Assembly: GCA_964016885.1 (NCBI GenBank)
Contig: OZ024743.1
Span: forward strand, 347,634,001-347,698,000
Reading direction: 5' to 3'
Source: Eledone cirrhosa
Taxonomy: Eukaryota
Length of the DNA: 64,000 nt
This document shows, in pieces, positions 1,751 through 63,137 of this stretch. Every line of letters starts with the position of its first letter. Within the stretch, counting starts at the first letter, position 1. The translations under genes and the position numbers were made by a program. The notes below the pieces were generated by a model that made no database searches, had not been told where the DNA came from, and saw nothing but the letters and a program-made list of their open reading frames with translations.

Positions 1751-1786
<36 letters not shown>
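1751..1786. repeat. (ATT)12 microsatellite at the divergence point of the Dong and Tx1 arrays
   Basis: Direct reading. Confidence 0.95.
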
Positions 1787-2002
1787 GAATGCCATGGTTG
1801 ACGGAGGCTCGGCTCTGTAAGGTATAGTAATTTTTAACCGTTAAAACAATTGTAAATTGTTTAAAACTTGAACCAAATTGTTGATAAAGACACCCTCCTC
1901 CTCGTGAGAGGGGTCTTTCTGTCCGTTATTTGGCCCTTCGGGGTTAAATAACCAGTTATTGGGGTTTTGTACCCAAAATTTCATTTTAAACAAAAAAACA
2001 AC

Positions 2003-3699
2003 ATGGCTACGAAAAAGAAATTTCATACGTCACTCCCACTCATTCCGTCTTCTTCTTCCTCAATCATCACTACAGCAGAGAGAAGATTGTCTCTCTCCCT
2101 CCCTTCTTTAAATGTGTCTCTCTCCCTCCCTTCTCTTTCGCAAGCGACGAAAGAAAAGAAAAGTCTCGTGCAAAGCGTGCAAGGTTTCTCCACGACGACG
2201 ACGACAGCGACGAAACAGGTGTGCGGGAAATACGAAAACCCAGTTCATTCGTCTGACGTCAGGAATAATAGCAGTAGCAGCCGTAATAACAACAGCAACA
2301 GTGACAATGAAAACAACAGTAGCAGCCGCAACAGCATCACCAGCAGCATAAACAACAACAGCATTAGCAGCAGCAACACCAACAACAACTACAGCAACAG
2401 CGGCGGAGGCAGTAGTCGTAGTACCTGCAACAACAACAAAAGTAGCAGCAGCTCTGACGACAACAACAACAGCAGAGAAAAACCAATCTCATTTGCAGGT
2501 ATTGCGAAAAACTTGGAAACAATCCTCATAACAAATGAGGAATTAGAGGAAGCGAAGAAGATGGTGACAAAGAACGGACACCGAGCAATCTGCAAGGCAG
2601 CGAAAATTTTTTTCGAAACCCAAGAGCACTGTACGGTCACGTACCGTACAGTAAGTACAAAATCCCGTAGGGTGGAAAGAGCCACAGAGGCCCAAATACA
2701 AAAAGCCTTGGGGTCTGTGTGGCAGCGGAAAACGCACATCACCCGAGGCAAAAAATATGCCACCGTAGACGTACTTTTTGCCACACCCCAGGAGGCAAAG
2801 GCCCAATCAGTAGTGATCCTAAGGAGCGAGGAAATGGTGTTGGTGCCCTCCTACTGTGGGCAAAAAATTGTGAGGGTCAAACTGACCCACGTCCCCCCCC
2901 CGGAATGACCCCTTCTTGGCTGGCCGCGTCTGTCCTCGTCGGAATCGAGGACAAAACAACTGTACTGCAAGTACAGAAAAAAGTAAGAAAAGATTGGGTC
3001 GGCTCCTCCATTGAGATGCTAATCCAAACCAACCAGGAGTGCATCGAAGCTATCCCGGATGTGATAGACTTCGATAACGGCACTCAACTGCCCATAAGTG
3101 TTGAGGGCAAACGCCCGAAATGCTTTCGCTGTGGATCGAAGACTCACCTCAGGGCCTTCTGCAACGAGAAGACCCTGAGAAAGGAGAAAACCCCCCTCCT
3201 TCCGAATCCGGCTCCACGGCTACCAGCAACAGGACAAGCGGCAACCAGGAACGATAGGCCCGTGGCACCCATACCCACTCCACGGAAATCAAAAACAGCA
3301 GCAGCAGTGGAAATACTAACAACAACAACAGCAATACCAAATGCAGCTGCAACAGAGACTCCAGTGCAAACATCACCAACAACAACAAGTGAAAGAGTGG
3401 AGTTGGTACCCCTCCCCGACCTCACAGAATCAGACATGGAGTGTGAGGTGGGAGAGAGATGGCAAAAGGTCGTAAGAAGGCACAAACGCAGAAGCAGCGC
3501 ATCGTCGCCTTTGAAAAGGGAGGAAAGAAATGAGAAAAGGGTAAAGTCTACTGCAAAGAGACCCACAGCAGCAACAACACCAACACCATCACCACCCACA
3601 CTAGCACCATCATCACCACCGGCGGCAACCCCACCGCCAACAACAACAACACCTTCAAAACCACCACCACAAACACCAACATATTTTGTAGGGAAATAG
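2003..3699 (+). pseudogene. Tx1 ORF1 (N/S-rich region, RRM-like domain, CCHC knuckle, P/T linker)
   Basis: ATG at 2003, one frameshift in the C9 run at 2893-2901, knuckle CFRCGSKTHLRAFC. Colinear with the ORF1s of copies 2 and 3. Confidence 0.8.
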
Positions 3700-6491
3700 A
3701 TAGGTCTAGCATAGGCTGTCCACAATTCAAGATAGTCAGCTACACGGACCACAAATTCGTGATCTGTGTGCTTGACTTAGATAGGCTTCATAGACGAGGA
3801 CCCGGCTACTGGAAGCTAAACGCGTCCTTACCAGCGCGCAAGGCCTACAGAGACCGGATTAGCGAACTAGTTAAGCGGGCGTTGACGGGGGCCATCGTCA
3901 ACAACAAGTGGTGGTTTGCTCTGAAAAGAGCGATTAGAATAGAATCGATTAGGTTTAGTAAGGCTTTAGCAATAGAGAAAAATAGAGCAGAGGGAGAACT
4001 AGTTAGAAAATTAGACGAGGCGCTTAGCAAAGGCATTGCGACCGACGTGCTTGCGGCGAAATTGGCCCTTGACCAATTCTTCAATGCAAAGCACGAAGGC
4101 TGCGTTGTCAGAGCAAGGGTGCGTGCTCTCAGACACGAGGGGACGAAAGCCGTGCAATGGGCCCGAGTGGCGGAGGCGCGTCGTGGCAACAAAGCCACGA
4201 TCCGGTCTTTGGTGGACCACGACGGGCGCATGCTACTCGATCCCGGGCAAATGTGTGAAGCTTTTCAGCGACACTTCGCTCAGCTGTTCGGGGGCAGCGG
4301 GGGGCCGGGTAGAGGGATGGACTTTAGTGTCTACCTCGACGGACTGCCGCGGCTCTCGGCCACTGAGGCGAAGTGTTGCGAAAAGCCGATAACAGCCGCT
4401 GAAGTAAGGGAGGCAATGACTGGCTGCACAAGGGGTAAATCGCCTGGTTTGGATGGTCTGCCCTATGAACTTTACGTACAGATGCCAGACTTGTTCGGAG
4501 GCCTCTTGGCGGACGTCTACTGCAACTGGCAACAGAACGGGAGAATTCCCAGTTCTGTGAGCCGAGGAGCGGTGGCACTGCTGAGAAAGGATCCGAACAA
4601 GGGGGATAACATAGAAAATTTCTGGCCCATAACTCTGCTAAACACAGAGTTCAAGATTTTGGCCAAGGTGCTAGCAAAGAGGTTGGCGCTTGTCGTTGGT
4701 GGTCTGGTGGGAGAGGCGCAGGCATGCGCCATTCCCGACAGATCCATCCACGACAACCTCCACCTCATGCGATACATCGTAGAGAGGGTAGCTAGGGAAC
4801 CTGGCACGGGTGGGTCCTTGATCAATTTAGATCAGTCGAAAGCTTTCGATAGGGTCGACCATCGTTACCTAGCGGCAGTCCTGAGGGCGGCTGGCTTTGG
4901 GCCCGTCTTCAGAGGCTGGATCGCTGCCATGCACAGCGACATCTGCTCTGTGGTGAGAGTGAACGGTCACCTGTCGGAACCGTTCAACATCATGCGCTCG
5001 GTCCGCCAAGGATGTCCCCTCTCGTCCCTCTTGTACGTATTGACTCTCGAGCCATTACTGCACAAACTGGAGACGTTGAGGGGAGTCCCGCGCGAACTAG
5101 GATGCGGAAGATCCGTGTCAGCATATGCGGACGATGTCACCGTAGTGGTGTCGAACGCCAAACACATCGAGGCGATCGGCACTACACTAAGAGAATACGA
5201 AGCGGTGACAGGAGCAATGATCAACCAGGAAAAGTCAGTGGGCCTGCAGCTCGGCACCTGGAGAGGCAGGTCCATGCCGTCCAACAGCGTCGTCGGGCGC
5301 TGGACGGACGGACCGGTTAAATTGCTAGGGGTCTGGTTCGGTCCGGACCTCCAGACGGACAAAAACTGGGACGAGGTGACGAGCAGGGTGGCTTCTCTCA
5401 CCCAGAAATGGGCGGAGAGGAAGCTATCCCTGAAAGGTCGAGCGGAGGTGGCTAACGCGTACATCGCGTCTGTCATCTGCTACCGCCTAACCGTCGTACC
5501 TTGTCCTAAGCCTCGCCTGACTGCGCTGGAGCGTTTGCTCTTTCGCTTTTTGTGGAAGGGACGTGCTCCGATGGTCAGGCGGTCCATCTGTTGTCAACAC
5601 CCGCTACGTGGAGGGCTGGGCATGCCGTGGCTGATGATGCGCAGGCACGCGCTCAGGCTACGACATCTCCACCTCTTCCTCGACGGTGATCAGGTGTGGT
5701 CGCCGTTTGCTAGGCGCGTTTTTCCCCAGCTCGTTTCCTTGACGGAGCTGCAGTCCTGGGTCAAGCGAAGACCGAGAGGGAGCGCCTGGAGACTGGAATG
5801 TCTTCAGGCGCTCACAGCCCTCGACCAATCGGGCAATGTGATCGGTGGAAACTCCACCTCGGCGTTCTATAGAGGATTAGTGGAGGGGAAGAGCGACGAC
5901 GTACTTGGGGAAACTCTAGGCGTCGACGAAAATCAACTAGCCAATCTCTTCGGAAGAACTTTCGGGCCAGGGCCTATGGACAACTTCCAGAAATCTCTGG
6001 CCTGGCAGTGCTACCGAGGAGCCTTGCCAGTTCGGGATAAACTCTACAGGCATGGAGGTGCCGTCAGCCGGGCATGTCCGAGATGCGCGCAGGGCGACGA
6101 AACCGTCCTGCACGCACTCGTCCAGTGTCCGAAAATTGCTGACTTGTGGGTTTATGTCGAACACCTGCTGTCGCGTTTAGGACGGATCCAGCTATCATCT
6201 GAGTCTATCGTGAGGATTGCCCCGCCCTCCTCCTTTAGCCGGGAAGGGCAGGCAGTTTTTATCTGTCTGGTGGCCATGGCGAAAGAGATAGTATGGTGGA
6301 CACGTTTGAAAGGGCTGAAGACGAGCACTTACCTCTTCGGTGATGCTCTGATTGACTTTTTCAAATTTCATTTGAAAAGGAAAATCAGAGTAGAGAAGGA
6401 AGTGCTCTCTTCCCAGCATTTTGTTGAAAGATGGGTGAGAGAAGCAAGAATGGCCCGAGTGAATGGGCCGACTCTGAGTATATATCTGTAA
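3682..6491 (+). CDS. Tx1 ORF2 lacking most of the endonuclease: reverse transcriptase plus C-terminal zinc finger
   Basis: Open frame with YTDH, PGYWKLN, KSPGLDG, DQSKAFD, QGCPLS, YADD, CPRC..ETVLHALVQC. Near-identical to 9574-12383. Confidence 0.9.
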
Positions 6492-6751
6492 ACTAAAGGT
6501 GGAAAACTGGGAGAGGGCACTTGCCTTGGTGGTCAGGGTCATTGTGGCTTTTTACTGGGCTTTCTCCACAAATGTCCCTCCGAAGTCTCCCCCCTATTGG
6601 GGAATTTTTCATTGTTATTTTCATTGTTATTTTTGTTACATCCTCTGTTTTTGTTTTTTTACACGCAGAAATGCCCATTTGTACCGTCCTGCATTGTCCT
6701 GCACTGTCCTTAATGTCTACTTTATGTAAACCCTTGTGGTTAATAAAGAAA

Positions 6752-6753
<2 letters not shown>

Positions 6754-6801
<48 letters not shown>
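6754..6801. repeat. (ATT)16 spacer between Tx1 copies 1 and 2
   Basis: Direct reading. Confidence 0.95.
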
Positions 6802-7015
6802 GGCGACCTACATAGTAAATCGTATCATCGTGAGCTCCGCAAATGTTTGTTATTTTCAGTTGTTTAATTGCCATTTATGGAAAATTTTTATTGTTAACTG
6901 TATATAAGTGCACATACACTGATTTCTGAAAAGGACACTCAAAAATATTGGGGCCTTGAGCCCAAAATTAAAATTTTTTTATAATTATCAAACAAAAATG
7001 TTTCTTTGAAAAATC

Positions 7016-8929
7016 ATGGATGATTCAGAGTCACTCCTTCCTCACAATCTAACAGCTCACACCGACACCACCATTGTAAATATTGCTACGTTTGCCAACA
7101 CTGGAAATGTAAGCAGTAGCAATATTTTTAATTTGTCTCAGGCAGACGTACATTTCCCGCCATTACCAATGACTGCAGGTGTTAAAGCCGCCACCACCGC
7201 GACAACCCCCCCCCCACCACCACAGCGACAACAGAAACAAAAGAAACAAATAAATTAACTCGTGATATCGAAATGAATTCAACCAAAATGAACTCTTCCA
7301 CACCGAACACCACTAACGCCGCCACCACAAACAACTGAAACTAAAATTAACAATAACAAAAATAACGATAACAACAACAGCAACAATGAAATTAAGAAAA
7401 CTACCCTGAGTTTTGCTAGAGTAGCAAAAACGTGCGAAGCGATCCAGGTAACTGAGGAGGAATTAGAAGAAGCTAAAGGAATGGTAAAGAAAGATGGGTA
7501 CAGGGTCAGCCTCACCCCTCCCACCTAATAAAATGGAGCAACGTCGTCTATGCACCGTGTCTTATCGGACAATTACCATAAAATCGCGCCGAGTGTAACG
7601 GGCATCCGAGTCCCAAATCCAAAAACTTTGGGTCATGTGTGGGCAAAAAACCCACATCAGACGTGGGCAGAAATATGGAATGTGGACGTGTTCTTTGAAA
7701 CACCACAGGAGGCCATAGAACACTCCCTGGCCCCATTAAGAAGTGACGACTTCTCACTCGTCCCAAGCTATTGTGTCCAGAGACTTGTGAAGATCAGGGT
7801 GACCCACGTTCCACCGGCCATCGAAATTCCCTGGCTAATGGTTGCCGTCCTTGCCGACATCGAGGCCAACACCAAGATAATAGAAATAGCGAAAGAGAAG
7901 CAGGAGAACTGGTCCGGATCTGGGATGGAGCTCCTGATCCAAGCGGACCATAAAAGCATTGAGGAGATCCCAGAGGTAATAGACCTCACTGACGGCAGCC
8001 ACCTCACCGTAATCGTCGAGGGCAGAAGACTTAGGTGTGTCGTTTGTGGTGAAGGAACCCACCTAAGGGCTTCCTGCCCCCAGGCTAAAAGGTAGAGGCC
8101 ACCTCTCTTACCCGCCCCAGTGACTCAACCATCAACATCACCAGCAGCAGAAATGGCAGCAACAACTGTAGCAGCAACAACCCCAGCAACAGTAGCAAAA
8201 CTAACACCACCACCACCCATCGCGCCAGAACTAGCACCAGCGCCTACACCATCCACCACGCCACAACCAAAACCAACGCCTGTGGAGGATTTTCCACTCC
8301 CCGGCTTATCGCAACTGCAGACAGATTGTGACGACGAGGAGTGGGAAACGGTATCAGGATAAAAGAAAAAAAGAAACCAAAAAGGAAAAAATTCTCTTCC
8401 TTCCCTCTCCAAAAACAAAATACAGAGGGAAACAAATAAATTATCAAACAAAAAAGTTAGGTCAGATAGGCCACTATCCACACCAGCATCACCAACCCCA
8501 TCACCACAAACATCACCACCATCACCATCATTAACCCCAACACCACCATCACCAACACCACAAAAGTCACCAAAAAGCGTAACAGAAACAAACCCACAAC
8601 AAACGCAAACAAAACAAAACAACCAAAACGATACACACTATACAGCATTAAATTTGAACAACAACCAATTATTACACTACATCCAACACAACACCAACAT
8701 CACAGGAATAGACTACACAACAACCCAAAAGTTCACACCACCTCCACACATACAAATCACTCGCATCACACAGAAAACGTACACGACACTAAAACAAAAA
8801 TTCCCCAAAGACATCGGAGACTTCCGACAAACACTTTCCAGGAGGATTTATAAGGACATCCTTCCGGAGGAGGCCACAAGCAGTGAAAAGGATGGACAAA
8901 CCATCCTTCCTCTACGAGAAGTAAGGTAA
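7016..8929 (+). pseudogene. Tx1 ORF1 with several frameshifts and stops
   Basis: Fragments LSFARVAK, VDVFFETPQEA, VTHVPP, CVVCGEGTHLRASC. Stops at 8093 and 8360 plus frameshifts. Confidence 0.8.
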
Positions 8930-8963
8930 GTGGTCTTTCCCATCTTTTCCACTCCATTTCAAC

Positions 8964-11900
8964 ATGACCTCACTCAGAATAGGCAGCATAAATGCGCGTG
9001 GCTTGGGGTCGTCATGGAATCAGGGCCACCTGCTCAACGACCTCAGGTCACTAAACATAGATGTAGTGGCCATCAGCGAGACCAGAATCTCCGAAGCACA
9101 GGCTTTCGCACCGATCTTCGGCGGCTACGATGTGTACGCATCTCCCAGCCGTCCGGGATCGGGGGGAGGAGTTGCTGTGCTTTTTCGGAGAGGTTTGGAT
9201 CTTGCCATACGGGCCATCTTCCTGGACCCAGAAGGTAAGTTGGTGGTGCTGGACGTGACCAGCGGAGACGGGCAAGCTTTCAGGTTAGTGGCCGTCTATG
9301 CCCCGACAGGAGCAGGGCGGCCTGATTTCTTCCGGCGTCTGGAGACCTTTCTTGGAACGTCCCGCTCTTTAGTGTTAGTGGGCGACTGGAAGGGGATCTT
9401 AGATGCACGCTGGGATTGTGTGGGATTAGTGGATAGGGAAGGAGGGTGCAAGAGTCTCACCAACCTGCTCAGACGTTTTGAACTGTCTGACAGGTACCGA
9501 ATGGATTTCCCGAATGTACCAATGTGGACTTGGACAAATCGCATAGGGTCATCCAGATCATATCTAGATAGAGTATTTTGTAGGGAAATAGATAGGTCTA
9601 GCATAGGCTGTCCACAATTCAAAATAGTCAGCTACACGGACCACAAATTCGTGATCTGTGTGCTTGACTTAGAAAGGCTTCATAGACAAGGACCCGGCTA
9701 CTGGAAGCTAAACGCGTCCTTACCAGCGCGCAAGGCCTACAGAGACCGGATTAGCGAACTAGTTAAGCGGGCGTTGAAGGGGGCCATCGTCAACAACAAG
9801 TGGTGGTTTGCTCTGAAAAGAGCAATTAGAATAGAGTCCATTAGGTTGAGTAAGACTTTAGCAATAGAGAAAAATAGAGCAGAGGGAGAATTAGTTAGAA
9901 AATTAGATGAGGCGCTTAGCAAAGGCATCGCGACCGACGTACTTGCGGCGAAATTGGCCCTTGACCAATTCTTCAATGCAAAGCACGAAGGCTGCGTTGT
10001 CAGAGCTAGGGTGCGTGCTCTCAGACACGAGGGGACGAAAGCCGTTCAATGGGCCCGAGTGGCGGAGGCGCGTTGTGGCAACAAAGCCACGATCCGGTCT
10101 TTGGTGGACCACGACGGGCGCATGCTACTCGATCCCGGGCAAATGTGTGAAGCTTTTCAGCGACACTTCGCTCAACTGTTCGGGGGCAGTGGCGGGCCGG
10201 ATCGAGGGATGGACTTTAGTGTCTACCTCGACGGACTGCCGCGGCTTTCGGCCACTGAGGCGGAGAGTTGCGAAAAGCCGATAACAACCGCTGAAGTACG
10301 GGATGCAATGACTAGTTGCACAAGGGGTAAATCGCCTGGTTTGGATGGTCTGCCCTATGAACTTTACGTACAAATGCCAAACTTGTTCGGAGGCCTCTTG
10401 GCGGACGTCTACTGCAACTGGCAACAGAACGGGAGAATTCCCAGCTCTGTGAGCCGAGGAGCGGTGGCGCTGCTGAGAAAGGATCCGAACAAGGGGGATA
10501 ACATAGATCATCTTAGGTCCATAACTCTGCTAAACACAGAGTTCAAGATTTTGGCCAAGGTGCTAGCAAAGAGGTTGGCGCTTGTCGTTGGTGGTCTGGT
10601 GGGAGAGGCACAGACATGCGCCATTCCCGACAGATCCATCCACGACAACCTCCACCTCATGCGATACATCGTAGAGAGGGTAGCTAAGGAACCTGGCACG
10701 GGTGGGTCTTTGATCAATTTAGATCAGTCGAAAGCCTTCGATAGGATCGACCATCGTTACCTAGCGGCAGTCCTGAGGGCGGCTTGCTTTGGGCCAGTCT
10801 ACAGAGGCTGGATCGCTGCCATGCACAGCGAAATCTGCTCTGTAGTGAGAGTGAACGGTCACCTTTCGGAACCGTTCAACATCATGCGCTCGGTCCGCCA
10901 AGGATGTCCCCTCTCGTCCCTATTGTACGTATTGACTCTCGAGCCATTACTGCACAAACTGGAGACGTTGAGGGGGGTCCCGCGCGAACTAGGATGCGGA
11001 AGATCCGTGTCAGCATATGCCGACGATGTCACCGTAGTGGTGTCGAACGCCAAACACATCGAGGCGATCGGCACTAAACTAAGAGAATACGAAGCGGTGA
11101 CAGGAGCAATGATCAACCAGGAAAAGTCAGTGGGCCTGCAGCTCGGCACCTGGAGAGGCAGGTCCATGCCGTCCAACAGCGTCGTCGGGCGCTGGACGGA
11201 CGGACCAGTTAAATTGATAGGGGCCTGGTTCGATCCGGACCTCCATACGGACAAAAACTGGGACGAGGTGACGAGCAGGGTGGCTTCTCTCACCCAGAAA
11301 TGGGCCGAGAGGAAGCTATCCCTGAAAGGTCGAGCGGAGGTGGCGAATGCGTACATCGCATCCGTCATCTACTACCGCCTGACCGTCGTACCTTGTCCTA
11401 AGCCCCGCCTGACTGCGCTGGAGCGTTTGCTCTTTCGCTTCTTGTGGAAGGGACGCGCTCCGATGGTCAGGCGGTCCATCTGCTGTCAACACCCGCTACG
11501 TGGAGGGCTGGGCATGCCGTGGCTGATGATGCGCAGACACGCGCTCAGGCTACGACATCTCCACCTCTTCCTCGACGGTGATCAGGTGTGGTCGCCGTTT
11601 GCAAGACACGTTTTTCCCCAGCTCGTCTCCTTGACGGAGCTGCAGTCCTGGGTCAAGCGAAGACCGAGAGGGAGCGCTTGGAGACTGGAATGTCTTCAGG
11701 CGCTCACAGCACTCGACCAATCGGGCAATGTGATCGGTGCAAACTCCACCTTGGCGTTCTATAGGGGATTAGTGGAGGGGAAGAGCGACGACGTACTTGG
11801 AGAAACTCTAGGCGTCGACGAAAATCAACTAGCCAATCTCTTCGGAAGGACTTTCGGGCCGGGGCCTATGGACAACTTCCAGAAATCCCTGGCCTGGCAG

Positions 11901-12383
11901 TGCTACCGAGGAGCTTTGCCAGTTCGGGATAAACTCTACAGGCATGGAGGTGCCGTCACCCGGGCATGTCCGAGATGCGCGCAGGGCGACGAAACCGTCC
12001 TGCACGCACTCGTCCAGTGTCCGAGCATTGCTGACTTGTGGGTTTATGTCGAACACCTGCTGTCACGTGTAGGACCGATCCAGCTATCAGCTGAGTCCAT
12101 CGTGAGGATTGCCCCGCCCCCTTCCTTTAGCCTGGAAGGGCAGGCAGTTTTTATCTGTCTGGTGGCCATGGTGAAAGAGATAGTATGGTGGACACGTTTG
12201 AAAGGGCTGAAGACGAGCACTTACCTCTTCGATGATGCCCTGATTAACTTTTTCAAATTTCATTTGAAAAGGAAAATCAGGGTAGAGAGGGAAGTGCTCT
12301 CTTCCCAGCATTTTGTTGAAAGATGGGTGAGAGAAGCAAGTATGGCCCGAATGAATGGGCCTTCTCTGAGTATGTGTCTGTAA
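8964..12383 (+). CDS. Tx1 ORF2: APE endonuclease, reverse transcriptase, zinc finger (1139 aa)
   Basis: NARG, SET, VYAP, GDW(K), YLD and TDH endonuclease motifs; KAFD, QGCPLS and YADD RT motifs; CCHC finger. The canonical GDxN Asn is replaced by Lys. Confidence 0.95.
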   Translation: MTSLRIGSINARGLGSSWNQGHLLNDLRSLNIDVVAISETRISEAQAFAPIFGGYDVYASPSRPGSGGGVAVLFRRGLDLAIRAIFLDPEGKLVVLDVTSGDGQAFRLVAVYAPTGAGRPDFFRRLETFLGTSRSLVLVGDWKGILDARWDCVGLVDREGGCKSLTNLLRRFELSDRYRMDFPNVPMWTWTNRIGSSRSYLDRVFCREIDRSSIGCPQFKIVSYTDHKFVICVLDLERLHRQGPGYWKLNASLPARKAYRDRISELVKRALKGAIVNNKWWFALKRAIRIESIRLSKTLAIEKNRAEGELVRKLDEALSKGIATDVLAAKLALDQFFNAKHEGCVVRARVRALRHEGTKAVQWARVAEARCGNKATIRSLVDHDGRMLLDPGQMCEAFQRHFAQLFGGSGGPDRGMDFSVYLDGLPRLSATEAESCEKPITTAEVRDAMTSCTRGKSPGLDGLPYELYVQMPNLFGGLLADVYCNWQQNGRIPSSVSRGAVALLRKDPNKGDNIDHLRSITLLNTEFKILAKVLAKRLALVVGGLVGEAQTCAIPDRSIHDNLHLMRYIVERVAKEPGTGGSLINLDQSKAFDRIDHRYLAAVLRAACFGPVYRGWIAAMHSEICSVVRVNGHLSEPFNIMRSVRQGCPLSSLLYVLTLEPLLHKLETLRGVPRELGCGRSVSAYADDVTVVVSNAKHIEAIGTKLREYEAVTGAMINQEKSVGLQLGTWRGRSMPSNSVVGRWTDGPVKLIGAWFDPDLHTDKNWDEVTSRVASLTQKWAERKLSLKGRAEVANAYIASVIYYRLTVVPCPKPRLTALERLLFRFLWKGRAPMVRRSICCQHPLRGGLGMPWLMMRRHALRLRHLHLFLDGDQVWSPFARHVFPQLVSLTELQSWVKRRPRGSAWRLECLQALTALDQSGNVIGANSTLAFYRGLVEGKSDDVLGETLGVDENQLANLFGRTFGPGPMDNFQKSLAWQCYRGALPVRDKLYRHGGAVTRACPRCAQGDETVLHALVQCPSIADLWVYVEHLLSRVGPIQLSAESIVRIAPPPSFSLEGQAVFICLVAMVKEIVWWTRLKGLKTSTYLFDDALINFFKFHLKRKIRVEREVLSSQHFVERWVREASMARMNGPSLSMCL

Positions 12384-12626
12384 ATTAAAGGTGGAAAACT
12401 GGGAGAGGGCACTTGCCCTGGTGGTCGGGGCCACTGTGGTCTTTTAATGGGCTTTCTCCACAAATGTCCCTTGGAAGTCTCCCCCCTATTGGGGAATTTT
12501 TCTTTGTTATTTTATTTCAACCTCTGTTTTTTTACACGCAGAAATGCCCATTTGTACCGTCCTGTATTGTCCTGTACTGTCCTTAATGTCTACTTTATGT
12601 GAACCCTTGTGGTTAATAAAGAAAAC

Positions 12627-12643
12627 ATTATTATTATTATTAA

Positions 12644-12686
<43 letters not shown>
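12627..12686. repeat. (ATT)n spacer between Tx1 copies 2 and 3
   Basis: Direct reading, one interruption. Confidence 0.95.
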
Positions 12687-15212
12687 GGCCTAATCGGACG
12701 TATTTTGCTCGCTCCCAGCAAGTCGCTTTATTTGCCTGTTAAAATTATTTGTTGTTAAATATTTCTCATTGTGTAAGGGATATAAACCCTTAGACTTTGC
12801 CCTGTGAAGAGAAAAGTATAATATTTGTGCCTTTTGGCCCAAATATTTGAACATTCTTTTACATGTAAAAAAATTTACGGAGAAAAATAAAACATGGCTG
12901 AACCACGCCCCCAGCGATATGTCTGCTGTCGTGCCACAACGACGTAGAAGTTGAGAGGAGCCCTACAGCGAAATTAACACAAATTGATAACACAAACACC
13001 ACCACAAACAATGTAAACAAAGACACCAATGATACCAATGAGAACTCTAATTTTGAAAAAAATGACAGTAACAGGGACAACGAAAATACAGATAACAAAA
13101 AGAAAAATAACAAATGCAACAACAATATCAACACCACTAACATGAAAACAAATAACGACAACACCAACAGCAACAATACCAACTGCACGGAGAACAACGG
13201 TGGCAACAAAGACAACAATGATAACAGCGACAGTGATAACAACAACACCAACGAGAACAACGACAACGACAACAACACCCCCATCGAAAACAAGAAGAAC
13301 ACTTTCGCTGCGGCAGCAGCAAAAAATAGGCCATGCTTCAACATCGCCTCTCAAACAAATATGAAAAGTTGGCCCAGGCAGGGAAGCTCATCAAGCAAGA
13401 ACAAACCTGGGCCAACTTAACTGTCCCGGTAGAAGCTATTGAGGCAGTGGAGTGCAGACATGTGCATTATAGATGCATCTCAGCATAAACCAAAAGGGCA
13501 GCTTCAATCCCACAAGAAGATGTCGAAGTCGCGCTGAGGTGCATCAGAGAAGACACCGAATACATAGAGAGGGGCAGACAGTACAGCACCATTTAGGTGT
13601 TGTTCAAGTCAGAAGCCCTCGCTATGAAACACGCTATGACTCCTTGCAAAACCGGCAAGGTCATAATGTACCCTTCCCACATGGGAAAAAGAACGGCCCC
13701 TCTCCGTATTCCCAGAATCCCACCTGGGCTTGACATGTTGTGGCTTCTGGGATGTGTGATTGTGGAGGGGACGGATAACGTCCCTATAGAAGTGACCAGA
13801 ACGGCCAGAGAGGACTGGTCCGGGGTTGACCTGGAGATCCTTCTCCAGATCAGGCCCGAGAATGTGAAGACAATCCCAGACCACATCCGCCTTCAGAATG
13901 GGACGGTCATTCACATTGTGACCGAAGGCAAAAGGCCGCAGTGTTTTATTTGCGGGGAAAAAACCCATTTGCGAGCCTTTTGCCCTCAACTACTGAAAGA
14001 GGCAAGGTGTCGAAAAGATCCACTGCTGGCGACGCCGGGGTGAGGACCACAACAAACACCAGCACCGGCAAAACCACCAACAACAACACCAATAGAAAGA
14101 GCACCACCAACATTGACCACCCAGGGGGGAAACGAAGAAAGCTGTCAAATTGCCCCTCCCCCCAACAATACACACACCAATAAAGCCTAAAGATACATAC
14201 ATACACACTTATAGACACAGACCCCTCATCTACCAGTAGTGAAGATGAGGGAAAACCAAAATCCCCAAAATACAATAAAGGAAACACAAAAAGAAAAAAA
14301 AAACTCAACAAAGCACAAAATCACCCACAATAAAAATAAAGCAGACACCACCCACGCAAACATCTCTCCAATAACACCAACATGAACACCAACATCACCA
14401 TCACCAGAATCCCCCAAACGCAAACAACCTAAACAGACGCAAGAACAAATATACACACAAACATCTGAAACCACAGACACCGCACTCACAACAAACACAG
14501 ACACAACGAAACAATACCACCAAAACCATCACCACCACAGCCACGCAAACAAATAAAATCACACCAACAAAACATACAATACTTCGTGCTCGTCAGGAGG
14601 GCCAACAAGGAACTGATGACCCTCGTAGGACGAAGAGAAATTATACAAAAAGAGGTGGACATTTTTAAATCGAGCACATTTCGCGTGCCGGAAGATTTGG
14701 TTCGGTGCGAATGTCGATCGATTTATACAAAGAAATACGAGACAGCTTTCCTCGGGACGTGGGAACCCCGAACGTAAAACCCACTTCAAGACTTTTAAAG
14801 GGGTTCCCAAAAGAAACCCCACCAACTATGGAGGTCGAACAACCCGACCTTCACAAGAGCCCGGAAGGTAAGTAAACCTTTCCTCTCTCTCTTTTTAACC
14901 TGTCAATATGGCCGTATTAAGAGTAGGATGTTTAAATGTTCGAGGCCTGGGATCGTCCTGGAAGCAGGGTCACCTGCTCAACGACCTCAGGTTTCTAGAA
15001 ATGGATGTAATTGCCGTCAGCGAGACCAGGATTTCCGACACGGGCGCACTAGCCCCCATTTTCGACGACTATCAGATCTTTGCATCTTGTAATTTTATTG
15101 TTACTTTGTTATTGTGATTCATATTGTTTACTCGATTTTTCAGTAAAACCCACTGTCCCAGTCTTTTGTATTGTCCCCTATATGTCGGTCCCTGTGGCCA
15201 ATAAATGAAATC
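12687..15212 (+). mobile_element. Tx1-clade copy 3: ORF1, first ~60 codons of ORF2, then 3' UTR (internally deleted)
   Basis: Disrupted ORF1 from ATG 12894 with CFICGEKTHLRAFC. ORF2 start MAVLRVGCLNVRGLG at 14908 breaks near 15087 into a Tx1-type 3' UTR. AATAAA at 15200 and (ATT)6 tail. Confidence 0.85.
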
Positions 15213-15359
15213 ATTATTATTATTATTATTAATATTACTATCTGTCATACCCAGCTTTACACACGTAAAGAGATTAGAGAAGACAGGTATATGAGAAAAA
15301 AATCCGCACGCGCATAGAGAACCGACGCAACGCCTGTACCCTGTTTTTTTTTTTTTTTG

Positions 15360-20964: not shown

Positions 20965-21395
20965 AGGATTTGTAATTGAGGCACAAGACTAATGATCTGT
21001 GGGGAAGAGAAAGTCGATTATATTGACCCCAATACATGAGATTGAAATGATGAGAGCAAAGTTTAAGTCGGCGTGACCTGAACTCACAATATAAAGAGAT
21101 AGAACAAATAACGCAATGATATTTTTTCCGTCACCCTACTAATTTTGCCAATCCACCTCCCTTAGTAGATCAGTAATAATGATTTCTAATATAAGCACAA
21201 GGCCAGTAATTTTGGGGAGGGGAACGTGGATTAAAATTGTCCCCAGTACGTTACTGGTGTTTATTTTATCGTAAGGATGAAAGACAAAGTTAACCTTGGC
21301 GGGATTTGAACTCAGATCCTGAAGAGCCATAACTCTATGTTGCAAAGCATGGTGCCTGGCGCTCTAACGATACACCCAATCTTCCGCTTCTAATT
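20965..21395 (-). mobile_element. Two tandem copies of the tRNA-derived SINE
   Basis: Reverse complement of the B-box (GGATTTGAACTC), the core and the CTTGTGC tail. The first copy is decayed. Confidence 0.75.
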
Positions 21396-24105: not shown

Positions 24106-24114
<9 letters not shown>

Positions 24115-24195: not shown

Positions 24196-24489
24196 GATAT
24201 CTCATTTGAGCCCACCTTTCAGCAATTCTGGACAAACTCTATTCTCTTATCCCTACCACCAACACGGACAAAACAACTGGTATTCCTCTATTTCTTCCAA
24301 CACCACTATTACCATTATCATCAACATTATCATTCATATTATCTTCAGCAGGATCATAATCATCAACATCATCATTACTATCATCCTCAGAATCATCATT
24401 ATAATCATTAAGATCGTCATCAAAATCATCATCGAAACATTCACCATTATCATCACCGCGATAATTATCATTTCAACATTATCTTCATT

Positions 24490-24672
24490 TTGCTGTATCG
24501 GTAGAGGGTCGGACGCCATGCTTTGCAGCATAGTTACGTCCCTTTATGGTCTGAGTTCAAATCCCGTCGAGGTTAACTTTGCCTTTCATCCTTACGGGGG
24601 TCGATGAAATATAGTACCAGTAATACACTGGAATAATTGCTGGCCTTGTGCCAAAAGTAGAAACAATTATTA
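24490..24672 (+). mobile_element. tRNA-derived SINE (Nin/Deu-type core)
   Basis: GAGTTCAAATCC B-box, GCCTTTCATCCTT..GGTCGAT..GTACCAG core, tail GGCCTTGTGCCAAAAGTAGAAACAATTATT. Confidence 0.85.
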
Positions 24673-25471
24673 GCAATTAAATCATCATCAACATCGCCAT
24701 CATCATCATAATTACCAACGTCATCATCTTCGTCATCATCTTATTGATATTTATATCACTCTCACAATCCACGGCAACAGCTTCCATCTTCACCCGCCAC
24801 AACCATCACCACCCTATCAACACTACTACCCCTCTACCTGAAAAACTTCCCACCTACTGAGTCATTCCGTGCAAACGTGTCGGGTGACTTATGCAATAGT
24901 TCTTAGCACTCAGAAATTCGTTTACTCCAACTCTCACCTCCTCCTACAGCCCCTCTTCTTTATCCTCATCCTCCTCATTCCACTCTTCACCCTCATCCTC
25001 ATTATTCGTATTCATTTTTTATTATTATTCTTTTATTTTCTTCCTCAACCATTACCAAACCAACAGTCAGTAACGTTGTCATTGCTCTCACCAACAACAC
25101 CAACACTTCCATTACACGTAACTATTACAACAACAACTATCATCAGCAGCAGCACCATCACCAACAATATTATCTTCACTACTAGCACCAGCACCAACAC
25201 CACCTTAAACATCACTCACCACTACCAAAACCACACATAGTCATAGAAATATTACCTCAATCAACATCATCATCAATATTGCTATCACCACCGAAAACAT
25301 CATAACCACCACTAACATCACCACAACAATTGTGCTTGCTAAGAACACCTTCCCCATCTTCACTGTTTATCTCTTGAAGGGCATTGAACTTTTGTTGGCA
25401 TCATCTGCTTCATTGCTGCTACATTATCTCTAAGCATATTCCTAAATAAAGCAATAAAACATGTCATTGAA

Positions 25472-26210
25472 ATAATAATTGTTTCTACATTTGGCTCAAG
25501 GCCAGCAATTAAACCAGTGAATTACTAGTGATTTATTTTATCCACCCTGTCAGGATGATAGGCAAGGTTAATCTCGGCAGGATTTGAACTCGTAACGTAA
25601 AGGGCCATAACTCTGTGCTGCAAAGCATATGTTTGAATTGAAACAATAATTGTTTCTACTTTTGGCACAACGCCAGCAATTAGTCAGTGTATTACTGGTA
25701 CTTTACTTTATCGACCCCGTAAGGATGAAAGGCAAAGTTAACCTTGGCGGGATTTGAACTCAGAATGGCAAGGGTCATAACTCTATGCGTCAAAGCATGG
25801 CGTCCGACCCTCTACCGATACTGCCAATCCACGGCGTAACTCATAATAATGGTCTTTGACTTAGATACAAGGCCAAAGAATTTTGGAGAAGCGGAATTTC
25901 GATTAAATCAACCTCAGTATGTTACTGGTACATTATTTTATCGACCCCCGTAAGTATGAAAGGCAAAACTAACATCTGCGGGATTTGAACTCAGAATATA
26001 GAAAGTCGTAATTAACTACCACAAATAATTTTGCCCGGCGCTCCACAAATACTAACAATCTTCTTGTAAATTAATAATTGTTTCTTATATAGGCACAAGG
26101 CCAGCAATTTTTGGGGGAGGGGAAAGTCGATTAAATCGACCCCACTGCGTGACTGGTACTTTATTGTATCAACCATATAAGGAAGAAAGACAAGTCTAGG
26201 CTCAATATTG
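25472..26210 (-). mobile_element. Head-to-tail array of four SINE copies
   Basis: Tails begin near 25472, 25643, 25843 and 26072, each at a short AATAAT run. Confidence 0.85.
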
Positions 26211-26357
26211 ATAATAATTGTTTCTTTATTAGCCACAAGTACCTTAATACAGGGAACAATACAATAGAGAGGGACAGTGGGGGGTTTACAAAAAAAAAAC
26301 AATAACAATCAACAAGATAATTATAACAATATAAATTCCCCATTAGGGGGAAGAACC
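26210..26357 (-). mobile_element. 5'-truncated Tx1 3'-UTR fragment
   Basis: Reverse complement has the TTCCCC-CTAAT-GGGGAA hairpin, CCCACTGTCCC and CTTGTGGCTAATAAAGAAACAATTATT, as in the Tx1 3' UTRs. Confidence 0.8.
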
Positions 26358-26379
26358 ATACACGGGTGACTCAGGAACC

Positions 26380-26500
26380 AACCAATCGCGAAACACACCA
26401 CAGTTTTATTTTTGAAAATAATACGAACTATGAAAACGGTAAAATAAATAAATATTCTTAAAAGACTCCAGTTGCATTTTCAATTCCTTTTACTTATATA
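26380..26500 (+). mobile_element. Solo PLE pseudo-LTR fragment related to 20280-20380
   Basis: Shared AATAAAxATTCTTAAAAxxCTCCAGTTGCATTTT block. Confidence 0.6.
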
Positions 26501-27754: not shown

Positions 27755-27791
<37 letters not shown>

Positions 27792-29724: not shown

Positions 29725-29910
29725 CGGTGGATTGGCAGTATCGGTAGAGGGTCGGACGTCATGCTTTCAAGCATAGTTACGTCCCTTTGCGGTCTGAGTT
29801 CAAATCCCGCCGAGGTTAACTTTGCCTTTAATCCTTACGGGGTCGATAAAAGAAAGTACCAGTAATGTATGGGTAATTGATGGCCTTGTGCCAAAAAGTA
29901 GAAACAATTA
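29725..29910 (+). mobile_element. tRNA-derived SINE, near full length
   Basis: A-box-like TGGCAGTATCGG, B-box at 29796, core and tail. Confidence 0.85.
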
Positions 29911-31327
29911 TAAGAGGTGATTACCAAATATAAATGCGAACATATTAAATATGATTTGGAATGGGATATTCTGAAATACAAAAGAAACGAAATCCTATAA
30001 CGGAGAAGGAAGGGAATGCTCGCTTTACTCCCAGGAGATTTCCCAAATAATGATCGCTTATCAACCATTTCTATATAAAAAGCAGTAGCTTATAATTCCG
30101 TGTAACGAAAAATCCTAAGAACATTTCAATTCAGGAAACCAACATAGCCACTAATTATGAACACCCGTATTCCGTTTTCCATAACCATACAGACCCATAT
30201 AACGTTTTACTGAAATTGGACCACATAAGCTAGCCACCATAAGGCACCTATCGGAAAACCTAAACTTGAACCACTGCACATCAACTATTATTGTGAACTT
30301 CTATACGTACATGTAGTAAACTAAGCTATTTGCTTTTATCCATCTTACTAACTACGTTACATTCTCACTTTCTTATTTTACGTTTGCTACGCCTACGCCT
30401 ACATAACATTAACATAATTTCAATTGTGCAACCCTCCAGCTCTCATAAATTATAATATCCACATAAGCCCACGGAATTGCTCGTGCAGACTATCTAACAA
30501 GCAGCCGCTTAACTAACACTTAATATATGCAAAAAAGTACATAAACATTTTAGAGTACGGCAGCTCAAGCACAAACACTGCTCAACATGGGGCACTATAC
30601 ACTCTCCAGCTTGGTTTGATATTTGCAAACATACACGAGGACGCGTGGGAGGGCGCACTTATTTACCTTAATGTTACCATAATGCCACCAATACTGAATC
30701 TACATAAATAAAGACTATTAATACTTCAATCCTGTTGGACACGATACTCCAGTTTGTGCCAGGATATACCCGGCTGACCGTCTGCCGAAGTATTACACAA
30801 GAAACGAATTCTCTGTCCCGCTTCCCAAAACAGCGAATATGGATGTAGGCGTATATGTATGTAGGTATGTATGTGTATATGCGTGTCAGTACATATATAT
30901 GTTTGAATATATGTCTCCCGGTGTTGGGATATATGGATCGATATTTTAGGCTATCGATGTTTGTTGATTAATCGAAAAATTATTATGTTCATGTGGCTAA
31001 GTTTATGTAGGATTGTATATACCTTCCCAGGACAATGATTTGCGTCAGTAGATATATACAGCTATATATGTGTTTCTATGTGCGTGTGAGTTGTTTTTAA
31101 ATGTGTGAATTTATCGTCAAAACGTGTCTGACATAAATGATATATATAGCATTGGGTGACTGCCCTATCTACTCCAACTGGTAAACCACAAACTGTTATA
31201 AAGGCCACAAAGAATCTAGATGTAATAAATCTTAATTATCTCCACGCACCCTACCTTCCTAAACTCAAATGTATTTGTCTATCCGTCTACCAACTTATAA
31301 CAGTAAATTTGACCAAAGAAATTCTAA

Positions 31328-33714: not shown

Positions 33715-33855
33715 TTAATAATTGTTTCTACTTTAGGCACAAGGCCAGCAATTACCCAGTGCATTACTGGTATTTTGTTTTATCGACCCCATAAGGGTGA
33801 AAGGCAAAGTCAACCTCGGCGGGATTTGAACTCAGATCGTAAAGGGACGTAATAA
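33715..33855 (-). mobile_element. SINE copy
   Basis: Same B-box, core and tail. Confidence 0.85.
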
Positions 33856-40179: not shown

Positions 40180-40462
40180 TGAAATTCATGTTAGCTTTGC
40201 CTTTCATCCCTACGGGGTCGATGAAATAAAGGTACCAGTAACGCACTTGGGTCCATTTAATCGACTTTCCCCTTCCCCAAGATTTGCTGGCCTTGTGCCT
40301 AATTCAGATGCTTTCTAGCATAGAGTTACGTCCCTTTACGGACTGAGTTCAAATCCCTCCAAGATTAACTTTACCTTTCATACTTACGGGGTCGATAAAA
40401 TAAAGTACCAGTAATGTACTGGGTAATTGCTGGCCTTGTGCCAAAAGTAGAAACAATTATTG
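40180..40462 (+). mobile_element. Two tandem SINE copies
   Basis: Core and tail present twice. Confidence 0.8.
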
Positions 40463-62768: not shown

Positions 62769-62958
62769 TAATAATTGTTTCTACTTTTAGCACAAGGCCA
62801 GCAATTATCCAGTGCATTTCTGGTACTTTATTTTATCGACCCCGTAAGGATGAAAGGCAAAGTTAACCTCGGCGGGATTTGAAATCAGACCATAAAGGGC
62901 CGTAACACTTTGCTGCAAAGCATGGCGCCCGACCCTCTACCGATACTGCTAATCCACG
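62769..62958 (-). mobile_element. SINE copy, near full length, in (AAT)n context
   Basis: Complete head, core and tail. AATAAT runs on both sides. Confidence 0.85.
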
Positions 62959-63137
62959 AATAATAATAATAATAATTGTTTCTACTAATAATAATAATGA
63001 TATATATATATATCTAACGGTTAGACAGATCACCTGTATTGTATTGTGATACCTTTGCCATGCTGTTCTCTATACATATAATAATGACGTATTATATTCG
63101 TTTTTTCCCGTTCTTTGCCAGGGAACGTTTCCACGAA

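What the first reader, a model, noticed from the sequence alone, without database searches (positions are those of the whole stretch)
25472..26357. SINE shares its 3' end and ATT target with the Tx1 LINE: candidate SINE-Tx1 partnership
The SINE tail CTTGTGCCTATATAAGAAACAATTATT aligns ungapped at 23/27 with the adjacent Tx1 end CTTGTGGCTAATAAAGAAACAATTATT. Full Tx1 copies end CTTGTGGTTAATAAAGAAA..ATTATT. Four SINEs and a Tx1 3' stub are stacked head-to-tail here in the same polarity, mirroring the LINE array, and other SINE copies also sit in AAT runs or in pairs. Known: SINEs borrow the 3' tail of their partner LINE, which is less typical for L1-group LINEs. Inference: a target-specific Tx1 mobilises a Nin/Deu-type SINE into microsatellites.
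Basis: partly seen in the sequence, partly recalled or inferred. Interest (0 to 1): 0.75.

Follow-up and report, generated by a model that had tools for sequence, protein, structure and literature searches.

The report
SINE riding an ATT-repeat-targeting LINE
A very abundant short retroposon (SINE) lands next to ATTAT(T) sequence in one orientation, as an ATT-microsatellite-specific L1-type LINE in the same genome does, and shares a short end motif with it, so it is likely copied by that LINE's machinery; this is a new example of a known kind of SINE-LINE partnership.

Summary
On the minus strand of 25474-26357 lie a 145-nt 3' stub of an L1-superfamily LINE and four SINE copies. All have one polarity and are joined at ATTATT tails. 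The quoted 23/27 tail match is exact.

The LINE (APE+RT+zf-RVT) is flanked by (ATT)n on both sides: 30 of 30 3' ends and 20 of 20 full-length 5' ends.

New evidence concerns the SINE. It makes up about 2.6% of a random 664-kb sample and has a strand-specific ATTAT(T) target:
- 35 of 51 full-length copies carry ATTAT within 25 nt upstream, against 4 of 51 for ATAAT and 5 of 51 in control windows.
- 22 of 24 flanking direct repeats start inside the terminal ATTATT.
- 14 of 29 older LINE tails are followed at once by a same-orientation SINE, and 1 by an opposite one.

The shared tail is short. Anchored at the ATT run, 14-18 of 24 nt match (shuffle p 5e-4 or below). An unanchored local alignment to the young LINE is not significant.

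A second abundant ATT-tailed LINE, CR1/Jockey-like, has an unrelated tail (3 of 24) and no ATT targeting.

Mobilisation by the ATT-specific LINE is therefore likely but untested. Tx1 clade membership and the Nin/Deu core were not established. Precedent exists in SINEU/Tx1-Mar, so this is a new member of a known kind.

The parts
26213..26357 (-). 3'-terminal stub (about 145 nt) of an older subfamily of the ATT-specific L1-type LINE, ending ...CTTGTGGCTAATAAAGAAACAATTATT
   Evidence: aligns with LINE 3' UTRs of L102, L098 and window 15085-15232.
26073..26193 (-). SINE, long subfamily, 5'-truncated, with tail CTTGTGCCTATATAAGAAACAATTATT
25843..26050 (-). SINE, long subfamily, decayed copy (ends approximate), ending ...GACCATTATTAT
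25645..25840 (-). SINE, short subfamily, near full length, ending TAGAAACAATTATT
25474..25628 (-). SINE, short subfamily, 5'-truncated at about consensus position 43, ending TAGAAACAATTATT
   Evidence: (170-nt period shared with the previous copy).
1786..6803 (+). LINE copy A. It starts right after (ATT)12 at 1750-1785. Its 5' part is of another subfamily and it is 95% identical to copy B from 3682 on. The ORF2 frame 3534-6491 has RVT_1 and zf-RVT. It ends CTTGTGGTTAATAAAGAAATC(ATT)16.
6804..12690 (+). LINE copy B, full length. The 5' end GGCGACCTACATAG follows the ATT run of copy A directly. ORF2 8925-12383 (1152 aa) has APE, RVT_1 and zf-RVT. It ends ...GAAAAC(ATT)n.
12691..15235 (+). LINE copy C, a third subfamily 5' end (GGCCTAATCGGACG...), internally deleted, ending ...CCCTGTGGCCAATAAATGAAATC(ATT)6. 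With copies A and B it forms a head-to-tail array joined by ATT runs.
62770..62984 (-). Full-length SINE (62770-62962) preceded by an ATT run and a 14-nt SINE tail stub (62971-62984)
21172..21381 (-). SINE, long subfamily, with tail ...CCTTGTGCTTATATTAGAAATCATTATT
24489..24671 (+). SINE, short subfamily
29727..29911 (+). SINE, short subfamily
33717..33852 (-). SINE, short subfamily, 5'-truncated
40190..40462 (+). Two stacked SINEs in one polarity: a long-subfamily fragment, then a short-subfamily copy at 40308-40462

Best explanation
The stack at 25474-26357 consists of four SINE copies and one LINE 3' stub that inserted one after another into each other's ATT tails, and the SINE is likely copied in trans by the (ATT)n-specific L1-superfamily (Tx1-like) LINE lineage of this genome.

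Shown directly:
- The LINE is bounded by ATT repeats on both sides and forms head-to-tail arrays.
- The SINE inserts, in one orientation only, at sites that begin with ATTAT(T), and makes 7-22-nt direct repeats that start with that motif.
- SINE and LINE ends share CCTTGTG, then 11 nt, then AGAAA, 2 nt and the ATT run, at identical spacing.

Inferred:
- The LINE endonuclease would nick the AAT strand of ATT sequence.
- The freed 3' end would pair with the AUUAUU end of the LINE or SINE RNA.
- The LINE reverse transcriptase would accept the SINE because of its short LINE-like end.
- Each new copy brings a new ATT seed, so elements pile up in the same polarity.
For: LINE target.
- 30 of 30 loci around the best 3' UTR matches end in (ATT)n. 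The median is 14 units in the 29 loci outside the window.
- 20 of 20 full-length 5' ends (19 plus the window's own) are preceded by an ATT run directly before GG|CGACCTAC. In 7 of these 20 the sequence upstream of that run is another LINE tail, and in 1 it is a SINE tail.

SINE target, in a random sample of 60 x 10 kb plus the window.
- There are 147 SINE hits.
- ATTAT lies within 25 nt upstream of 35 of 51 full-length copies. ATAAT does so in 4 of 51, and ATTAT in control windows 100 nt further up in 5 of 51 (Fisher p 1e-9 and 2e-10).
- Of 35 full-length copies with usable flanks, 24 have a flanking repeat of 7 nt or more, and 22 of those 24 start inside the terminal ATTATT.
- The 28 best genome copies give the same picture: 22 have such a repeat and 20 of them start in ATTATT.
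- 14 of 29 diverse LINE tails are followed within 110 nt by a same-orientation SINE and 1 by an opposite one. The sample holds about one SINE hit per 4.5 kb, so chance predicts about 1%.

Tail.
- An ungapped alignment anchored at the ATT run gives 14-18 of 24 identities, with shuffle p from 5e-4 to below 5e-5.
- Among 3559 ATTAT sites the background mode is 5 of 24. Every site at 15 or more looks, by eye, like a SINE or LINE tail, although the automatic classifier left several decayed or truncated ones unclassified.

Rival LINE excluded.
- The other ATT-tailed family (APE+RT, no zf-RVT) has a tail matching 3 of 24 by eye, and its local alignment is not significant.
- Its 16 truncated young copies show ATTAT upstream in 2 of 16 and no flanking repeat that starts in the tail. 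An ATT tail alone therefore does not produce the SINE's target signature.

Age. The LINE lineage spans about 64-95% identity to copy B in the sample, plus copies with 100% identical 3' UTRs. This brackets the SINE, whose median identity to its consensus is 90.6% and whose best copies reach 95-99%.

Precedent. SINEU families were assigned to Tx1-Mar LINEs by shared target preference (PMC4494074; abstract and sections 15 and 16 read).
Against: - The shared tail is short. A local alignment of the SINE's last 90 nt against the last 300 nt of the young LINE scores no better than shuffles (212 and 226 of 500). Only the old stub stands out (0 of 500 with the ATT run, 41 of 500 without it).
- The SINE consensus matches the youngest LINE tail at 14 of 24, and about 3 unrelated ATTAT sites among roughly 3400 also reach 14.
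- SINE tails carry 1-2 ATT units in 62 of 82 copies and 4 or more in 5 of 82. LINE tails carry a median of 14, and full-length LINEs sit in runs of 2-22 units. The two elements therefore mostly use sites of different length.
- Only 2 of 29 of the youngest LINE tails have a SINE behind them. The best SINE copies are 1-5% from their consensus, whereas many LINE copies have 100% identical 3' UTRs. The SINE may no longer be moving with the current LINE subfamily.
- A shared hairpin (stem, loop CTTGT, stem) is possible, but covariation is not significant (930 of 5000 shuffles reach the observed pairing). The predicted folds of the SINE tails do not recover it.
- Only about 0.66 Mb of random sequence plus targeted loci were inspected, so a rarer LINE family with a better tail match cannot be excluded.
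- No transposition experiment exists.
Confidence: 0.66

Rival explanations
1. The SINE is mobilised by a different LINE with an (ATT)n tail. Candidates are the very young, abundant CR1/Jockey-like family found here (L112 type) or a family not sampled. On this view the resemblance to the L1-type LINE tail is convergence or chance.
For: - Such a LINE exists and is highly active. At least 150 copies have 98-100% amino-acid identity over the last 200 residues, among 31,635 first-look candidates.
- Its ATT tails are short (median 5 units), closer to the SINE's 1-2 units than the L1-type LINE's 14.
- For conserved-core SINEs of bivalves, the partners proposed in the passages I read are CR1-Zenon, CR1 and Nimb elements (PMC11481361, passages).
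- The unanchored tail alignment to the young L1-type LINE is not significant.
Against: - Its tail...GAGCACTGTACACAATAATTTC(ATT)n, matches the SINE tail at 3 of 24 anchored positions, and the local alignment is not significant (195 and 166 of 500 shuffles).
- Its 16 truncated young copies show ATTAT upstream in 2 of 16 and no direct repeat starting in the tail. The SINE shows 35 of 51 and 22 of 24.
- No other repeat family in 664 kb carried the SINE-type tail.
Confidence: 0.17
2. There is no specific partner. Any LINE reverse transcriptase can prime on the SINE's AUUAUU end, and the ATTAT target preference comes only from base pairing between the RNA end and nicked DNA. The LINE-like tail motif would then have no function.
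For: The flanking repeats start exactly with the bases that end the SINE, as simple microhomology priming predicts. Evidence for a shared hairpin is weak.
Against: - The CR1-like LINE also ends in ATT repeats yet shows no ATTAT preference at its insertion sites (2 of 16). Pairing alone therefore does not give the signature.
- The motif CCTTGTG, 11 nt, AGAAA, 2 nt, ATT is kept in both SINE subfamilies and across LINE subfamilies at the same spacing.
Confidence: 0.12
3. The local stack is a product of segmental or tandem duplication and not of repeated insertion.
For: TRF reports a 170-nt period over 25466-25798.
Against: - The four SINEs belong to two subfamilies and are truncated at different positions.
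- The two lower copies are only about 82% alike.
- Equivalent stacks with other combinations occur at many unrelated loci.
Confidence: 0.03

Closest known systems
SINEU families and Tx1-Mar LINEs of crocodilians (Kojima 2015, PMC4494074; abstract and sections 15 and 16 read)
   Same: A SINE is assigned to a target-specific Tx1-type LINE mainly because both prefer the same target. Both are found stacked next to each other at that target, and their activity periods overlap.
   Different: There the target is a Mariner DNA transposon and the heads derive from U1/U2 snRNA. Here the target is ATT sequence, the head has only tRNA-like boxes, the SINE is far more abundant (about 2.6% of sampled DNA), and a short shared end motif exists.
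Kibi (TC)n and Koshi (TTC)n, and the crocodilian (TTCC)n/(TTTC)n Tx1 families: microsatellite-specific Tx1-clade LINEs (as described in PMC4494074 and PMC3812793, passages read)
   Same: An APE-bearing L1/Tx1-type LINE flanked by its target microsatellite on both sides, in one orientation, forming arrays.
   Different: The repeat unit is ATT. Clade membership is not tested here. In the passages I read, no SINE partner is described for Kibi or Koshi.
Stringent-type LINE/SINE pairs such as UnaL2/UnaSINE1 (Kajikawa and Okada 2002, seen only as cited in PMC4494074; details recalled)
   Same: The same terminal short repeat and a LINE-like end on the SINE.
   Different: Classical shared tails are tens of nucleotides long with a proven stem-loop. 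Here only about 22 nt are alike, and a common hairpin is not supported statistically.
Dong elements, which target (TAA)n microsatellites (PMC3812793, passage read; the R4-clade assignment and restriction-like endonuclease are recalled)
   Same: The same microsatellite family (TAA/ATT) is used as target.
   Different: The LINE here carries an AP-type endonuclease N-terminal to the RT and a zf-RVT domain, and its best solved relative is L1 ORF2p. It is not a Dong-type element.
L1/Alu (recalled general knowledge)
   Same: The target duplication begins with the bases that end the RNA (A-rich for L1/Alu, ATTATT here), as expected from target-primed reverse transcription at a sequence-biased nick.
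   Different: L1 recognition of Alu rests on poly(A). Here the end is an ATT repeat plus a short specific motif, and the LINE is confined to microsatellite runs.

Membership tests
SINE-LINE partnership by shared 3' end (stringent type) | SINE tail homologous to the LINE 3' end | tested here: inconclusive
   The anchored ungapped match is 14-18 of 24 nt upstream of the ATT run (shuffle p 5e-4 to below 5e-5; the genomic background rarely reaches 14). The unanchored local alignment to the young LINE is not significant (212 of 500 shuffles).
SINE-LINE partnership by shared 3' end (stringent type) | Same terminal simple repeat | tested here: met
   Both end in ATT units. The numbers differ: SINE mostly 1-2 units, LINE median 14.
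SINE-LINE partnership by shared 3' end (stringent type) | Same insertion-site signature | tested here: met
   The LINE is flanked by ATT runs at 30 of 30 3' ends and 20 of 20 5' ends. The SINE has ATTAT upstream in 35 of 51 copies against 4 of 51 for ATAAT, 22 of 24 flanking repeats start in ATTATT, and 14 of 29 LINE tails are followed by a same-orientation SINE.
SINE-LINE partnership by shared 3' end (stringent type) | Overlapping periods of activity | tested here: met
   LINE relatives are about 64-95% identical to copy B in the sample, and other copies have 100% identical 3' UTRs. SINE copies are about 75-99% identical to their consensus. The very youngest LINE tails are rarely followed by SINEs (2 of 29).
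SINE-LINE partnership by shared 3' end (stringent type) | Mobilisation in trans shown by assay | not testable with these tools
   This needs a retrotransposition assay.
Tx1 clade of L1-superfamily LINEs | ORF2 with AP endonuclease, RT and a C-terminal zinc-binding domain, with L1-like RT | tested here: met
   Pfam finds Exo_endo_phos, RVT_1 and zf-RVT. The best solved relative is human L1 ORF2p (E 8e-48), against R2 at 1.5e-17.
Tx1 clade of L1-superfamily LINEs | RT phylogeny placing it inside Tx1 (RTclass1 or a reference tree) | not tested
   No named Tx1, L1 or other clade reference set could be assembled. The only named homologue is a coral protein automatically called 'Transposon TX1 uncharacterized 149 kDa protein' (30% identity). 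A profile search added no relevant names.
Tx1 clade of L1-superfamily LINEs | Target-sequence specificity | tested here: met
   ATT runs lie on both sides and the copies form head-to-tail arrays.
Tx1 clade of L1-superfamily LINEs | ORF1 of the RRM/CCHC type (described as consistent with Tx1 in PMC5203782, passage read) | tested here: inconclusive
   An intact 522-aa ORF1 (L046:1728-3293) shows one CX2CX4HX4C motif by eye, but there is no Pfam match below E 0.01.
tRNA-derived SINE with Deu/Nin-DC core | tRNA-related head | tested here: not met
   ARAGORN finds no tRNA in the window. The Rfam tRNA model does not hit SINE copies even in a 301-nt search. Only box-like motifs (GGTAGAG, GAGTTCAAATCCCGCC) are seen by eye against a recalled consensus.
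tRNA-derived SINE with Deu/Nin-DC core | Deu or Nin-DC central domain | not tested
No reference sequence of these domains was available from any tool.
Dong-type (TAA)n-specific LINEs | Restriction-like endonuclease C-terminal to the RT, and no AP endonuclease (recalled definition) | tested here: not met
   An AP endonuclease domain lies at residues 30-223 of ORF2.

The most novel reading that the evidence does not exclude
A microsatellite-specific 'safe-haven' LINE has been hijacked by a SINE that needs only a 5-6-nt ATTAT(T) seed. The machinery of a site-restricted element has thereby spread some 10^5-10^6 SINE fragments through a 3-Gb genome. Every SINE or LINE insertion plants a new ATT seed, so same-polarity nested arrays grow by themselves. 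The recognition signal would be a minimal end module (CCTTGTG, 11 nt, AGAAA, 2 nt, then AUU repeats) much shorter than classical stringent tails.
Probability: 0.45. Interest if true: 0.6.

Novelty: new member of a known kind. Interest (0 to 1): 0.45.

Why it matters
Target-specific LINEs are usually thought of as confined to a harmless niche. Here a dependent SINE appears to use the same targeting rule but with a very short seed. It has become one of the commonest repeats in the genome.

That gives a natural system for three questions:
- How much of a target-specific LINE's specificity lies in the endonuclease and how much in RNA-DNA pairing.
- How short a LINE-like end a SINE needs.
- How ATT microsatellites and retroposon arrays seed each other.

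It also has a practical use for repeat annotation of this genome. Same-polarity SINE/LINE stacks joined by ATT runs should be read as serial insertions and not as satellites.

Tried and rejected
- **Common hairpin.** I looked for a shared stem, CTTGT loop, stem. The LINE 3' ends fold that way (z about -1.2 to -1.5, not significant). The SINE tails do not in the minimum-energy fold. Across 41 distinct LINE tails, pairing is 77%, but 930 of 5000 arm shuffles reach that. I dropped it as evidence.
- **Unanchored local alignment** of SINE and LINE ends: not significant for the young LINE.
- **tRNA origin of the head:** no Rfam or ARAGORN support.
- **Tx1 assignment.** Two protein searches and the Atlas gave almost no names, and the cluster look-up gave no organism or clade.
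- **Direct repeats around 5'-truncated L1-type LINE copies.** One was convincing (L145, 13 nt). The other nine of the ten matches listed looked like internal 3' UTR repeats, other repeats or larger duplications.
- **Genome DNA search with the 3' end of the CR1-like LINE** returned nothing, not even its own locus, so it says nothing. I replaced it with a protein search.
- **A third tail-bearing fragment** (L138:8322-8351) has CTCCTTGTGACTATAGAAGAAATCATTATT behind a minisatellite. It has no other copy in the held loci, and I did not pursue it.
- **Earlier notes of this scan:** nothing on this genome.
- **One literature search was mis-formatted** and not repeated. The 'TX1' in PMC4176376 is a mutant label, not the LINE.
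- **Prior description.** I found no paper describing an ATT-specific Tx1/L1 LINE or this SINE in the searches. Repbase and Dfam could not be consulted, so both elements may already be catalogued.

Full report
**1. What is at the site.**

Read on the minus strand, 26357->26213 is the last 145 nt or so of a LINE 3' UTR. It ends CTTGTGGCTAATAAAGAAACAATTATT. It aligns with the 3' UTRs of older subfamilies of the LINE that stands full length elsewhere in the window.

Four SINE copies follow in the same polarity:
- 26193->26073, long subfamily, 5'-truncated.
- About 26050->25843, long subfamily, decayed.
- 25840->25645, short subfamily, near full length.
- 25628->25474, short subfamily, truncated near consensus position 43.

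Each junction lies at or a few bases after an ATTATT. The quoted 23/27 match between the SINE tail at 26099->26073 and the stub tail is exact. The tail 14-mer is strongly over-represented in the window: 16 matches against 1.74 expected, and 0 of 100 shuffles reach 16. The copies differ in subfamily and truncation point, so the stack is a series of insertions and not a tandem duplication, although TRF reports a 170-nt period.

**2. The LINE.**

ORF2 at 8925-12383 (1152 aa) has an AP endonuclease, RVT_1 and zf-RVT. Its best solved relative is human L1 ORF2p (E 8e-48, against 1.5e-17 for R2). The only named homologue is a coral protein automatically labelled 'Transposon TX1...' at 30% identity. 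Further searches added no useful names.

An intact 522-aa ORF1 in another copy shows one CCHC-type knuckle by eye but has no Pfam match. L1-superfamily membership is therefore shown. Tx1-clade membership is plausible but untested.

The window holds a head-to-tail array of three copies joined by ATT runs: 1786-6803, 6804-12690 and 12691-15235.

In the genome:
- 40 scored 3' UTR matches (1309 first-look candidates) are 100% identical over 261 nt. All 30 loci inspected end in (ATT)n, with a median of 14 units in the 29 outside the window.
- All 20 full-length 5' ends inspected (40 scored of 3041 candidates) are preceded by an ATT run directly before GG|CGACCTAC. In 7 of them the sequence upstream of that run is another LINE tail, and in 1 it is a SINE tail.
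- In the 19 loci outside the window, that 5' flank holds 2-22 uninterrupted ATT units.
- That query began with 14 nt of ATT. This favours such copies slightly, but it adds little to scores above 1000 bits.

The LINE is thus specific for ATT microsatellites in one orientation. The lineage is old and still young at once: copies in a random sample are about 64-95% identical to copy B.

**3. The SINE.**

A 194-nt majority consensus from 28 genome copies finds 147 hits in 664 kb (60 random 10-kb stretches plus the window). That is about 2.6% of bases. Simple extrapolation gives several hundred thousand fragments in 3 Gb. Median identity to the consensus is 90.6%. The best genome copies reach 95.3-99.0%.

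Two subfamilies share the body and the tail. The long one has an insert before the tail. Rfam and ARAGORN do not recognise a tRNA in the head. Only box-like motifs are visible by eye. The 'Nin/Deu' label could not be tested.

**4. SINE target, the main new result.**

In the random sample:
- 35 of 51 full-length copies have ATTAT within the 25 nt upstream. The reverse-complement pentamer ATAAT occurs in 4 of 51, and ATTAT in control windows in 5 of 51 (Fisher p about 1e-9 and 2e-10).
- Partial hits show a weaker trend: 19 of 95 against 4 of 95.
- Of 35 full-length copies with usable flanks, 24 have a flanking direct repeat of 7 nt or more. In 22 of these 24 the repeat begins inside the SINE's terminal ATTATT. 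Seven of those are insertions into the tail of an older SINE.
- 11 of the 35 have no such repeat.

The 28 best genome copies agree: 22 have a repeat and 20 of these start in ATTATT.

In a set of 29 diverse LINE tails found by a pattern search (36 genome matches, 0 for the reversed control), 14 are followed within 110 nt by a same-orientation SINE and 1 by an opposite one. Among the 29 youngest LINE tails the count is only 2 and 0.

Most SINE sites are short, however. 62 of 82 3' ends have 1-2 ATT units and only 5 of 82 have 4 or more.

**5. The shared end.**

Aligned without gaps from the start of the ATT run, SINE and LINE tails agree at 14-18 of the preceding 24 nt (shuffle p 5e-4 to below 5e-5). 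The common pattern is CCTTGTG, 11 nt, AGAAA, 2 nt, then ATT, at the same spacing.

Against 3559 ATTAT sites of the sample, the background mode is 5 of 24. About 3 unrelated sites reach 14. Every site at 15 or more looks, by eye, like a SINE or LINE tail.

Beyond about 24 nt there is no similarity. A local alignment of the SINE's last 90 nt with the young LINE's last 300 nt is no better than shuffles (212 of 500). Only the old stub stands out. A common small hairpin is conceivable, but neither folding nor covariation supports it.

**6. Rivals.**

A Pfam scan of 51 long ORFs from the random sample showed other LINE families. One of them (the L112 type) also ends in (ATT)n:
- Its ORF2 is 957 aa with AP endonuclease (including Exo_endo_phos_2) and RVT_1 but no zf-RVT, which suggests a CR1/Jockey-like element. 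The clade is not determined.
- It is very young and abundant: at least 150 copies at 98-100% amino-acid identity, among 31,635 first-look candidates.
- Its tail is unrelated to the SINE tail (3 of 24 by eye; local alignment not significant).
- Its 16 truncated young copies show ATTAT upstream in 2 of 16 and no direct repeat starting in the tail.

An ATT tail alone thus does not create the SINE's target signature. This points to the endonuclease of the ATT-specific LINE. No other family with the SINE-type tail was seen in the sample, but the sample is small.

**7. Comparison with the literature.**
- Kojima 2015 (PMC4494074; abstract and sections 15 and 16 read) assigned SINEU families to target-specific Tx1-Mar LINEs by shared target. 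The same paper lists Tx1 families specific for (TC)n, (TTC)n, (TTCC)n and (TTTC)n.
- PMC3812793 (passages) lists Dong as (TAA)n-specific. By recollection Dong carries a restriction-like endonuclease instead of an AP type, and ORF2 here has an AP domain.
- PMC11481361 (passages) proposes CR1-Zenon, CR1 and Nimb partners for bivalve conserved-core SINEs.
- My searches found no description of an ATT-specific L1/Tx1 LINE or of this SINE. Repbase and Dfam were not available, so both may be catalogued already.

**8. Verdict.**

The partnership is the best-supported reading (about two in three), through target signature more than through tail homology. It is a new member of a known kind.

Still open: the clade of the LINE, the core type of the SINE, whether the short end motif is a recognition signal, and any experimental proof.

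Noticed in passing
L112:5255-7620; full copy L196:about 40-4700 (G000:C4:324948500-324954309): A second LINE family, very young and abundant: at least 150 copies at 98-100% amino-acid identity over the last 200 residues, among 31,635 first-look candidates. ORF2 is 957 aa with APE and RVT_1 but no zf-RVT. The upstream region of L196 holds a cysteine/histidine-rich stretch that looked PHD-like by eye, with no Pfam match. The 3' UTR carries an internal tandem duplication of about 130 nt. The element ends in (ATT)2-10 but is not ATT-targeted.
   Followed up: partly
L003, L005, L010, L011, L012, L021, L026, L027 (3' flanks); L089:about 9165; L132: A repeat beginning GTTCTTTGAGTCTCAGTCATTGATG lies directly after the ATT run in 8 of 29 young LINE 3' flanks and at other ATT arrays. 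It may be an element with an (AAT)n tail on the other strand that supplies target arrays.
   Followed up: no
L109:160-5720: A satellite with a unit of about 556 bp. Each unit contains (ATT)4.
   Followed up: no
window 31521-31591 (+): An Rfam tRNA match at 31 bits, just above the gathering score of 29. It is either a true tRNA gene or the head of another SINE.
   Followed up: no
L110:1701-4808, L135:8838-9998, L116:9111-9998: A third LINE family with APE, RVT_1 and a PHD finger after the RT. The L110 copy is followed by a long TA-rich simple repeat.
   Followed up: no
L138:8322-8351 (-): A single fragment ending CTCCTTGTGACTATAGAAGAAATCATTATT, the same end pattern as the LINE and SINE. It sits behind a 17-nt minisatellite and is followed by a same-orientation SINE. 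It has no other copy among the held loci.
   Followed up: partly
L103:4808-6337: A long open frame with AMP-binding and AMP-binding_C domains, probably an exon of a host acyl-CoA synthetase-like gene.
   Followed up: no
window 20300-28800: Many long (TA)n and (AT)n microsatellites and an (ACT)27 run surround the stack. They give spurious miRNA-family hits in Rfam below the gathering scores.
   Followed up: no
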